Position numbers and translations under genes: made by a program
The notes under the pieces: generated by a model
Seen by the model: only the letters and a program-made list of their open reading frames with translations
Told to the model about the DNA's origin: nothing
Databases searched by the model: none
Shown: positions 31,105 to 33,162 of the stretch, piece by piece
How the letters are laid out: each line of letters starts with the position of its first letter
How positions within the stretch are numbered: the first letter of the stretch is position 1
DNA from: Nemertoderma westbladi
Taxonomy: Eukaryota; Animalia; Xenacoelomorpha
Assembly: GCA_032718475.1 (NCBI GenBank)
Contig: JAUCBJ010006209.1
Span: 1-41,193, forward strand
DNA: 41,193 nucleotides
Reading direction: 5' to 3'

Positions 31105-33162
31105 TACTTCCCGGTAGATTCATTATCTTCCGGTAGATTCATATTACCTTCCGGTAGGTTCATTATTACCTTCCGGTAGGTTCATTATTACCTTCCGGTA
31201 GGTTTATATATTTCTTTCCGGTAGGTTCAACACCTTCCGGTAGGTTGATTACCTTCCGGTAGGTTCAATACCTTCCGGTAAGTTCATTAGATTCCGGTAG
31301 GTCCATCATTACCTTCCGGTAGGTTCATTACCTTCCGGTAGGTTCATTACCTTCCGGTAGGTTCATTATTACCTTCCGGTATATTCATTACCTTCCGGTA
31401 GGTTCATTACCTTCCGGTAGGTTCATTAGCTTCCGGTAGGTCCATCATTACCTTCCGGTAGGTTCATTACCTTCCGGTAGGTTCATTAGCTTCCGGTAGG
31501 TCCATCATTACCTTCCGGTAGGTTCATTACCTTCCCGTAGGTTCATTACCTTCCGGTAGGTTCATTACCTTCCGGTAGGTTCATTACCTTCCCGTAGGTT
31601 CATTACCTTCCGGTAGGTTCAATACCTTCCCGTAGGTTCATTACCTTCCCGTAGGTTCATTACCTTCCGGTAGGTTCATTACCTTCCGGTAGGTTCATTA
31701 CCTTCCGGTAGGTTCATTACCTTCCGGTAGGTTCAGTAGCTTCCGGTAGGTCCATCATTACCTTCCGGTAGGTTCATTACCTTCCCGTAGGTTCATTACC
31801 TTCCGATATATTCATTACCTTCCGGTAGGTTTATATATTACTTTTCGGTAGGTTCCTTACCTTCCGGTAGGATCAATACCGTCCGGTAGGTTCATTACCT
31901 TCCGGTAGGTTCATTTCCTTCCTGTAGGTTCATTATTACCTTCCGGTATATTCATTACCTTCCGGTAGGTTCATTAGCTTCCGGTAGGTCCATCATTACC
32001 TTCCGGTAGGTTCATTACCTTCCGGTAGGTTCATTACCTTCCGGTAGGATCAATACCGTCCGGTAGGTTCATTACCTTCCGGTATATTCATTACCTTCCG
32101 GTAGGTTCATTACCTTCCGGTATATTCATTACCTTTCGGTAGATTCATTATTTCCTTCCGGTAGGATCAATACCTTCCGGTAGGTTCATTTCCTTCCTGT
32201 AGGTTCATTACTACCTTCCGGTAGGTCCATCATTACCTTCCGGTAGGTTCATTAGCTTCCGGTAGGTTCATTTCCTTCCTGTAGGTTCATTACTACCTTC
32301 CGGTATATTCATTACCTTCCGGTAGGTTCATTACCTTCCGGTAGATTCGTTATTACCTTCCCGTAGGTTCATTACCTTCCGGTAGGTTCATTTCCTTCCG
32401 GTAGGTTCATTATTACCTTCCGGTATATTCATTACCTTCCGGTAGGTTCATTTCCTTCCGGTAGATTCATTATTACCTTCCGGTAGGTTCATTACATTCC
32501 GGTAGGTTCATTACCTTCCGGTAGGTTCATTACCTTCCGGTAGATTCGTTATTACCTTCCCGTAGGTTCATTACCTTCCGGTAGGTTCATTTCCTTCCTG
32601 TAGGTTCATTATTACCTTCCGGTATATTCATTACCTTCCGGTAGGTTCATTTCCTTCCGGTAGGTTCATTATTACCTTCCGGTATATTCATTACCTTCCG
32701 GTAGGTTCATTTCCTTCCGGTAGATTCATTATTACCTTCCGGTAGGTTCATTACATTCCGGTAGGATCAATACCTTCCGGTAGGTTCATTTCCTTCCTGT
32801 AGGTTCATTACTACCTTCCGGTAGGTCCATCATTACCTTCCGGTAGGTTCATTAGCTTCCGGTAGGTTCATTTCCTTCCTGTAGGTTCATTACTACCTTC
32901 CGGTATATTCATTACCTTCCGGTAGGTTCATTACCTTCCGGTAGATTCGTTATTACCTTCCCGTAGGTTCATTACCTTCCGGTAGGTTCATTTCCTTCCG
33001 GTAGGTTCATTATTACCTTCCGGTATATTTATTACCTTCCGGTAGGTCCATCATTACCTCCCGGTAGATTCGTTCATTACCTTCCGGTAGGTTCATTATT
33101 ACCTTCCGGTAGGTTCATTATTACCTTCCGGTAAATCCATTATTTATTACCTTCCGGTAGGT
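31105..33162. repeat. 19/22-bp satellite derived from the kinase exon-3 splice donor (~100 units)
   Basis: Plus-strand unit TTACCTTCCGGTAGGTTCA(TTA), i.e. gene-strand ACCTACCGGAAG|GTAATGA. The terminal copy overlaps the last 12 nt of exon 3 (ACC TAC CGG AAG). Confidence 0.97.

What the first reader, a model, noticed from the sequence alone, without database searches (positions are those of the whole stretch)
31105..33162. A ~2-kb satellite made of ~100 copies of the kinase's own 5' splice site
Seen: on the gene strand exon 3 ends ...GAG ACC TAC CGG AAG|GTAATA. The following 2 kb is a tandem array of ACCTACCGGAAG|GTAAT(AAT)GA, i.e. the last 12 exonic nt plus the donor. Most copies keep AAG|GTAAT, identical to the real donor from -12 to +5; a minority have lost the GT (AAGGAAA, AAGCTAA). 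The second donor (33124) adds 26 nt, a frameshift. All later donors include the in-frame TAA at 33123-33121, so only the first donor gives an intact kinase. Inference: the spliceosome must pick one of many near-equivalent donors. The array could act as a U1 snRNP sink or decoy field, a copy-number-tunable NMD switch for NDR dosage, or protection against premature polyadenylation in a 16-kb intron.
Basis: partly seen in the sequence, partly recalled or inferred. Interest (0 to 1): 0.9.

Follow-up and report, generated by a model that had tools for sequence, protein, structure and literature searches.

The report
Repeated splice donor, possible intron-birth fossil
In an animal's NDR kinase gene, 19-22 bases around one splice signal are copied about 100 times into the intron, yet the assembled RNA uses the first copy; this is a known and likely harmless kind of repeat, whose unit here may also preserve a trace of how the intron arose.

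Summary
Real: 103 units of 19-22 nt run from the end of exon 3 of an NDR/STK38 kinase gene into its last coding intron; 82 keep GT, and all 81 downstream donors would truncate the kinase. One spliced contig joins the first donor to 17123; minor use of other donors is unmeasured. This is a known class: donor-spanning minisatellites of human F7, CBS and 6-16 (IFI6), and amphioxus 'mirages'; in F7 the most upstream donor wins. This scan noted four similar arrays on other DNA. The U1-sink, telescripting and NMD-switch ideas have no positive evidence. The array therefore likely grew by hairpin-aided slippage at a lineage-specific intron and may preserve the direct repeat of its birth (about 60%). 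A nested transposon makes up 13.7 of the 16 kb.

The parts
34205..34498 (-). NDR/STK38 kinase coding exon 1 (98 aa)
   Evidence: covered by spliced contig 9 of run X4
33538..34011 (-). exon 2 (158 aa, kinase N-terminal part); intron 1 of 193 nt skipped in the contig
33151..33405 (-). exon 3 (85 aa), ends ...T-Y-R-K; intron 2 of 132 nt skipped in the contig
33149..33162 (-). 14-nt quasi-palindrome ACCTACCGGAAG|GT across the authentic donor (6 of 7 pairs; the only such 14-mer of 1397 in the coding sequence)
33149..33150 (-). authentic GT donor of intron 3 (phase 0, after residue 341); an AATAAA overlaps +3..+8
31105..33162 (-). minisatellite, 103 units of mostly 19 or 22 nt, 33 unit variants, 82 with GT; a 13-unit block is repeated 600 nt apart; first and last units diverged
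33121..33123 (-). in-frame stop met by every downstream donor
30928..31100 (-). unique AT-rich intron remnant (173 nt), no significant likeness to the unit
17246..30927 (.). 13,682-nt DNA transposon-like insertion: terminal inverted repeats (20 nt, 95%) and an 8-nt target duplication with one mismatch (hAT-like, class recalled); holds a second element with TA-flanked CACTG ends (17732-30376) and 85- and 39-bp tandem arrays
17124..17237 (-). unique 3' end of intron 3 with T-rich tract and AAG acceptor
17115..17126 (-). acceptor 12-mer AAG|GTGATGAAC, matched at 11 of 12 by 30 of 103 array units
16737..17123 (-). exon 4 coding part (128 aa + stop; end of kinase domain and AGC C-terminal domain)
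   Evidence: loose end of the X4 contig at 33149 reads into it

Best explanation
This is a donor-spanning minisatellite (a 'mirage') that is likely a tolerated by-product with no regulatory job: a self-complementary 14-nt stretch at the exon 3 splice donor likely seeded slippage and unequal exchange, and the spliceosome uses the first donor, likely because it comes first. Shown: the array, the truncation by every later donor, the first-donor junction in one contig, the quasi-palindrome. Predicted: neighbouring units pair in stems that bury internal donors more than the first. Inferred origin: intron 3 is a lineage-specific gain at an AG|GT site; most likely a short foreign stretch entered with a 10-12-nt direct repeat (which explains the AAG acceptor and the likeness of the unit's tail to the start of exon 4), the 19-nt donor segment then expanded, and a nested transposon stretched a roughly 2.3-kb intron to 16 kb. 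The order of the last two events is unknown. Odds: no regulatory role about 0.85; this particular origin about 0.4, some intron-gain footprint about 0.6.
For: Contig 9 of run X4 (2,687 nt, no differences) skips introns 1 and 2 and at 33149 continues into exon 4, so donor 1 is used. F7 minigenes: only the most upstream of identical donors is used even against stronger ones (PMC1557585). Variant units, a repeated 13-unit block and diverged edges are the turnover pattern described for mirages (PMC3087553). GT loss is even along the array (20/26, 19/26, 23/26, 20/25 keep it) and rests on 3 variant alleles, like other columns. The junction 14-mer is the top quasi-palindrome of the coding sequence, and two units fold as DNA at -7.5 kcal/mol, below every 33-mer of the coding sequence (minimum -7.0). 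RNA fold z = -3.4; opening donor 1 costs 2.1-3.4 kcal/mol against medians of 4.4-5.8 for the others. Origin: unit matches the spliced junction at 20 of 21 nt; chance of the tail match about 0.001-0.035; donor-versus-acceptor 12-mer 11 of 12 for the unit, while 0 of 36 predicted introns of relatives reach 10 and 3 of 36 end in AAG; 0 of 11 intron-bearing loci that span the site have an intron there. Direct repeats of 4-12 bp flank new Daphnia introns (PMC4202315).
Against: Only one spliced contig from one sample; contigs drop rare forms, so exclusive use is not shown. In human 6-16 and CBS two downstream pseudo-sites are used (PMC1557585 introduction). GT columns vary about twice as often as the other columns (0.10 vs 0.05), which could hint at selection against donors. 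Masking is only predicted: 3-20 of 81 copies open more easily than donor 1, 12-17 of 68 natural spacers would leave it as open, and the working intron 2 donor costs 4.4-5.4 kcal/mol. The palindrome stands out at 14 nt but is one of 9 at 12 nt. Origin: the present donor itself matches the acceptor 12-mer at only 9 of 12, which 1 of 36 control introns also reaches; the test was made after seeing the match; the other two introns are also AG|GT and unshared yet show no such repeat (5 of 12 each); relatives are all distant and the locus list favours intron-poor genes (80 of 461 kept); one relative (L075) has an intron one codon away.
Confidence: 0.72

Rival explanations
1. Origin rival: the intron was born directly from the repeat. 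A 19-nt coding segment containing AG|GT was duplicated in tandem, the first copy became the donor and the last the acceptor (Rogers model), and the 3' end was later remodelled.
For: Unit equals the uninterrupted coding junction at 20 of 21 nt with a 2-nt microhomology 19 nt apart; AAG acceptor; array is about 87% of the intron once the transposon is removed (2,044 of about 2,340 nt). Precedents: two fission-yeast introns made of 24-nt tandem units (PMC3629103), ATP2A1 (PMC4974935 introduction).
Against: All 9 bases upstream of the acceptor's AAG differ from the unit and form a T-rich tract; the roughly 290 unique intron bases show no significant likeness to the unit; the unit has no pyrimidine tract, and a first 19-nt duplication would shift the frame and be too short to splice (general knowledge).
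Confidence: 0.2
2. Origin rival: intron 3 is old in this lineage, only its donor end was amplified, and the likeness to exon 4 and the AAG acceptor are chance.
For: The human cases sit at ordinary donors; the present donor matches only 9 of 12; the conservative chance estimate is 0.035; introns 1 and 2 are also unshared and have no repeats.
Against: Two separate signals (tail match, AAG) point the same way; 0 of 36 control introns reach the unit's match.
Confidence: 0.4
3. Function rival: the array is a copy-number-tunable switch that diverts transcripts to truncated or NMD-degraded forms and so sets NDR dosage.
For: 81 of 81 downstream donors truncate the kinase; 78 of 81 place the stop more than 55 nt before the junction; human 6-16 and CBS use two pseudo-sites. 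NMD targets would be scarce in steady-state RNA.
Against: The contig found uses donor 1; scanning selects by position, so copies far downstream should add little; the proximal copies most likely to be used would escape the junction rule; stop codons are expected by chance in an AT-rich 19-nt unit (67 in-frame stops); no conservation evidence.
Confidence: 0.08
4. Function rival: the array is a U1 sink, or a U1 landing field that protects the long intron from premature polyadenylation.
For: 82 GT donors of consensus score 5-8 of 9; U1 bound to cryptic donors can suppress nearby polyadenylation signals (PMC5499120); 4 of 14 AATAAA lie in or within 1 kb of the array, one on the donor itself.
Against: Median range 0.5-1 kb; 10 of 14 signals are out of reach and all 12 outside the array lie in the transposon insertion; internal donors are predicted to be base-paired.
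Confidence: 0.03
5. The array is an assembly artefact.
For: No long read was seen; the run that carries the array in DNA contigs (X2) may be the source of the window.
Against: 33 unit variants with block structure and decaying edges are not what a collapsed or looped assembly gives; X2 holds a 1,619-nt contig running from the gene into the first units and 7 short contigs of unit variants. Copy number may still be off.
Confidence: 0.02

Closest known systems
Human F7 intron 7 37-bp VNTR, with 6-16 (IFI6), CBS, LMNB2 and PDGFA cases (Borensztajn et al. 2006, PMC1557585; read: abstract, synopsis, introduction, part 4 of 6, passages)
   Same: First monomer spans the exon/intron boundary; identical pseudo-donors follow; the most upstream is used.
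   Different: There 4-25 extra donors in units of 37-100 nt where stated; here 81 in 19-22-nt units, in an invertebrate-type intron-poor gene, with a self-complementary unit that matches the spliced junction.
Amphioxus 'mirages' in Adh3, globins, TnC, PGBD5 (PMC3087553 and PMC3902484; read: passages)
   Same: Minisatellite-like duplications of exon/intron boundaries, 10-160-nt units, concerted evolution with diverged edges, normal splicing; proposed there as a route to new introns.
   Different: Few copies there (3-6 in globin 6); their gain model recruits a repeat as a new exon, whereas here the unit may record the birth of the intron it sits in.
[quoted passage not shown]
   Same: AG|GT at both ends, coding sequence unchanged, intron 5' part made of copies of the coding junction.
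   Different: The 3' end of this intron is not repeat-derived, and no close intron-less relative is at hand.
Daphnia new introns from staggered double-strand-break repair (PMC4202315; read: passages)
   Same: A 4-12-bp direct repeat shared by one intron end and the adjacent exon; here 11 of 12 through the unit.
   Different: There proven by intron-less alleles; no donor minisatellite described in the passages read.

Membership tests
Donor-spanning minisatellite ('mirage', F7 type) | Tandem unit holds the exon end plus the donor, first monomer spans the true boundary | tested here: met
Donor-spanning minisatellite ('mirage', F7 type) | Mature mRNA uses the most upstream donor | tested here: met
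   one spliced contig, run X4
Donor-spanning minisatellite ('mirage', F7 type) | Pseudo-donors silent or limited to the nearest one or two | tested here: inconclusive
   only contigs, which drop rare forms
Donor-spanning minisatellite ('mirage', F7 type) | Concerted evolution inside, diverged edge units | tested here: met
   13-unit block repeated; first unit 26 nt; last units decayed
Donor-spanning minisatellite ('mirage', F7 type) | Length polymorphism between alleles | not testable with these tools
   no long reads or second assembly
[quoted passage not shown] | AG|GT at both ends, protein unchanged | tested here: met
   also true of introns 1 and 2, so not specific
[quoted passage not shown] | Intron absent at the site in relatives | tested here: inconclusive
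   0 of 11 intron-bearing loci spanning the site, but all distant; one has an intron a codon away
[quoted passage not shown] | Intron 5' part is a copy of sequence from both flanking exons | tested here: met
   20 of 21 nt to the spliced junction
[quoted passage not shown] | Acceptor end is also a copy of the duplicated segment | tested here: not met
   only AAG shared; 9 of 9 bases upstream differ; remnant unlike the unit
Intron gain by insertion with a short direct repeat (Daphnia type) | 4-12-nt direct repeat at the two ends | tested here: inconclusive
   11 of 12 through the commonest unit, 9 of 12 at the present donor; controls 0 of 36 at 10 or more, 1 of 36 at 9
Intron gain by insertion with a short direct repeat (Daphnia type) | Intron-less allele or sister species | not testable with these tools
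   no genome held; no close relative among 80 loci or 120 listed proteins
Telescripting element | Donor-like sites within about 1 kb of the polyadenylation signals to be suppressed | tested here: not met
   10 of 14 AATAAA lie more than 1 kb beyond the array
Splicing-coupled NMD switch | Regulated use of the stop-bearing junction, stabilised when NMD is blocked | not testable with these tools
   geometry only: 78 of 81 donors fit the recalled rule, the nearest 3 do not

The most novel reading that the evidence does not exclude
The array is the birth record of an intron in a core kinase gene: a palindromic 19-nt piece of coding sequence expanded into a spliceable intron, and because neighbouring copies pair with each other and hide their own donors, a hundred perfect splice signals silence themselves and leave the first one free.
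Probability: 0.18. Interest if true: 0.62.

Novelty: new member of a known kind. Interest (0 to 1): 0.33.

Why it matters
As a mirage it is a large natural example (81 extra donors, against 4-25 in the human cases read) that position can outweigh sequence in choosing a 5' splice site, outside mammals and amphioxus. If the match to the spliced junction is a birth footprint, it is one of few animal introns whose origin can still be read, and sequencing the site in sister species would decide between gain by tandem duplication and gain by insertion with a direct repeat.

Tried and rejected
No whole genome is held, so other copies of the unit and genome-wide donor statistics could not be sought. 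No RNA holder was listed by label; X4 was judged RNA from its skipped introns. Run X4 had no cover in the bin 33090-33140, where extensions to donors 2 and 3 would lie; a part without cover is no evidence. Runs X6 and X7 (other organisms) covered 2 of 30 bins each and gave no intron position. Reads were not obtained for the exon 4 side, so junction counts per donor and polymorphism of the transposon remain open. A profile scan for decayed units outside the array found nothing above background; one exact 8-mer at 30991 is matched by another at 33589. The unique intron remnant has no other copy in the window. The tree left the kinase on a long branch beside nematode-like rows, probably by attraction, and did not place the organism (FastTree, 86 rows, 447 columns). 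Of 18 loci put through the spliced aligner, 6 were left out of the control count: 2 gave no intron (L004, L042) and 4 gave single doubtful ones (L013, L045, L047, L070); none of these had an intron at 341-0; L046 does not reach the site. No splice-site scoring model was available; consensus matches were used. Literature searches listed no paper on this locus; most subscription journals are not covered, the original mirage, 6-16 and CBS papers were not read, and no supplements were read (those of PMC3087553 on globin intron E8.1 may bear on the birth model). Scan look-ups by place and for an intron-birth match returned nothing.

Full report
Observation. On the minus strand the window holds a four-exon NDR/STK38 kinase gene (34498-34205, 34011-33538, 33405-33151, 17123-16737). 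The exons join to 469 residues with one terminal stop, carry Pkinase and Pkinase_C domains and are 60-73% identical to 26 named animal NDR proteins. Directly after exon 3 lie 103 tandem units, mostly 19 or 22 nt, in 33 variants; Tandem Repeats Finder agrees. 82 of 103 keep GT, and all 81 downstream ones lead to a stop at the codon starting at 33123. The core of the unit does not occur elsewhere in the window.

Which donor is used. Of four runs laid on 33090-34600, run X4 holds a 2,687-nt contig without differences that skips introns 1 and 2 at GT..AG ends and, at 33149, continues with the start of exon 4. The run is labelled 'DNA?', but the skipped introns mark it as RNA (inference). So donor 1 is used. 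This is one contig from one sample; rare junctions are not measured, and the exon 4 side was not examined.

What it is. Minisatellites whose first unit spans a donor are known: human F7 (only the first donor used; shown with minigenes to be chosen by position, even against stronger copies), LMNB2 and PDGFA (first only), 6-16 and CBS (two more used) (PMC1557585). Amphioxus has the same structures, called mirages, with concerted evolution, diverged edge units and normal splicing (PMC3087553, PMC3902484). The array here shows the same turnover: a 13-unit block repeated 600 nt apart, a 26-nt first unit and decayed last units. Four earlier notes of this scan describe such arrays in other genomes (unchecked).

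Why here. The 14 nt ending in the donor GT are a quasi-palindrome, the only 14-mer of 1,397 in the coding sequence with 6 of 7 pairs; at 12 nt it is one of 9. Two neighbouring units fold as DNA at -7.5 kcal/mol, lower than any 33-mer of the coding sequence, a likely seed for slippage. As RNA, neighbours pair in 12-bp stems (z = -3.4). Opening donor 1 is predicted to cost 2.1-3.4 kcal/mol against medians of 4.4-5.8 for the other 81, though 3-20 of them open more easily depending on the window, and 12-17 of 68 natural spacers placed behind exon 3 leave the donor as open as the real one. Self-masking is therefore a modest, predicted helper, not a shown mechanism.

Telescripting reaches a median 0.5-1 kb (PMC5499120); 10 of 14 sense AATAAA sites lie further than that from the last copy. 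The intron is 16,027 nt, of which 13,682 are one insertion with terminal inverted repeats and an 8-nt target duplication, itself holding a second element; the array is 2,044 nt and about 290 nt are unique. For NMD, 78 of 81 downstream donors leave the stop over 55 nt before the last coding junction, but the nearest three, the likeliest to leak, do not (rule recalled). GT loss is even along the array and rests on three variant alleles, although GT columns vary about twice as often as others (0.10 vs 0.05). Nothing positive supports a regulatory role; a small leak is not excluded.

The commonest unit, read on into the next, matches the spliced exon 3/exon 4 junction at 20 of 21 nt, differing only at a valine wobble base. 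Beyond the forced GT, 6 of 7 bases match the start of exon 4; chance is about 0.001 on background composition, 0.0025 with recalled donor frequencies, and 0.014-0.035 if the two wrap-around bases are left out. The acceptor is AAG, a copy of the last codon of exon 3. As a control, 36 introns predicted by a spliced alignment in 12 metagenome loci gave donor-versus-acceptor 12-mer matches of at most 9 (1 of 36), against 11 for 30 of 103 units and 9 for the present donor; 3 of 36 end in AAG. None of the 11 intron-bearing loci that span the site has an intron at 341-0; positions shared among them (215-2, 325-1, 366-2) are missing from the window gene, and none of its three introns is shared exactly. 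One locus has an intron a codon later (L075) and one a base after intron 1 (L046). These loci are the best 80 of 461, biased to intron-poor genes, and all distant, so the gain cannot be dated.

Two birth routes. Pure tandem duplication of coding sequence (Rogers; PMC3443670, PMC3629103, PMC2891723, PMC4974935, PMC2812944) predicts the match but not the acceptor end, where 9 of 9 bases before AAG differ from the unit and form a T-rich tract, nor the unique 290 nt. Insertion of a foreign stretch with a 10-12-nt direct repeat, as in new Daphnia introns (4-12 bp; PMC4202315), explains the AAG, the tail match and the ready-made tract, with the array growing afterwards. I give insertion 0.4, tandem birth 0.2 and chance at an older intron 0.4.

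Verdict. Real, a large new member of a known class, most likely without a regulatory job. The added interest is the possible intron-gain footprint and the self-pairing unit, both testable with sister species and minigenes. Interest 0.33.

Noticed in passing
window 17246-30927: Nested transposon-like insertion: outer element with 8-nt target duplication, inner element with TA-flanked CACTG ends (17732-30376) carrying 85-bp arrays (18017-19993, 22412-24864) and 39-bp arrays (24865-29309). Superfamily labels are recalled.
   Followed up: partly
window 34204-34012, 33537-33406, 33150-17124: All three kinase introns are phase 0, sit at AG|GT before a valine codon and are unshared with 12 relatives' loci, while shared positions are missing: heavy intron turnover or an old retrogene that regained introns.
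   Followed up: partly
window 929-2170 (+): Sterol reductase gene (ERG4/ERG24). A 33-bp repeat of 2.4 copies (1931-2010) overlaps its probable second acceptor near 1981, copying exon-start bases into the intron end: possibly a small acceptor-side mirage. The second exon was not confirmed by Pfam or PDB searches.
   Followed up: partly
window 33148-33143 (-): A canonical AATAAA overlaps +3..+8 of the authentic donor; a second lies at 33033.
   Followed up: no
L075 and L046: Near-miss intron positions: 342-0 (one codon after the window's 341-0) and 98-1 (one base after 98-0); sliding or independent gain.
   Followed up: no
window 4111-4650 and 35746-36579 (+): Fragments of non-LTR retrotransposon endonuclease (weak) and reverse transcriptase.
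   Followed up: no
window 5748-6488 (+): 246-codon cysteine-bearing ORF with a hydrophobic start and end and no Pfam match; possibly a secreted or membrane-anchored protein.
   Followed up: no
window 40952-41155: 27-bp purine-rich tandem repeat that would encode an acidic Ser/Glu/Asp-rich stretch.
   Followed up: no
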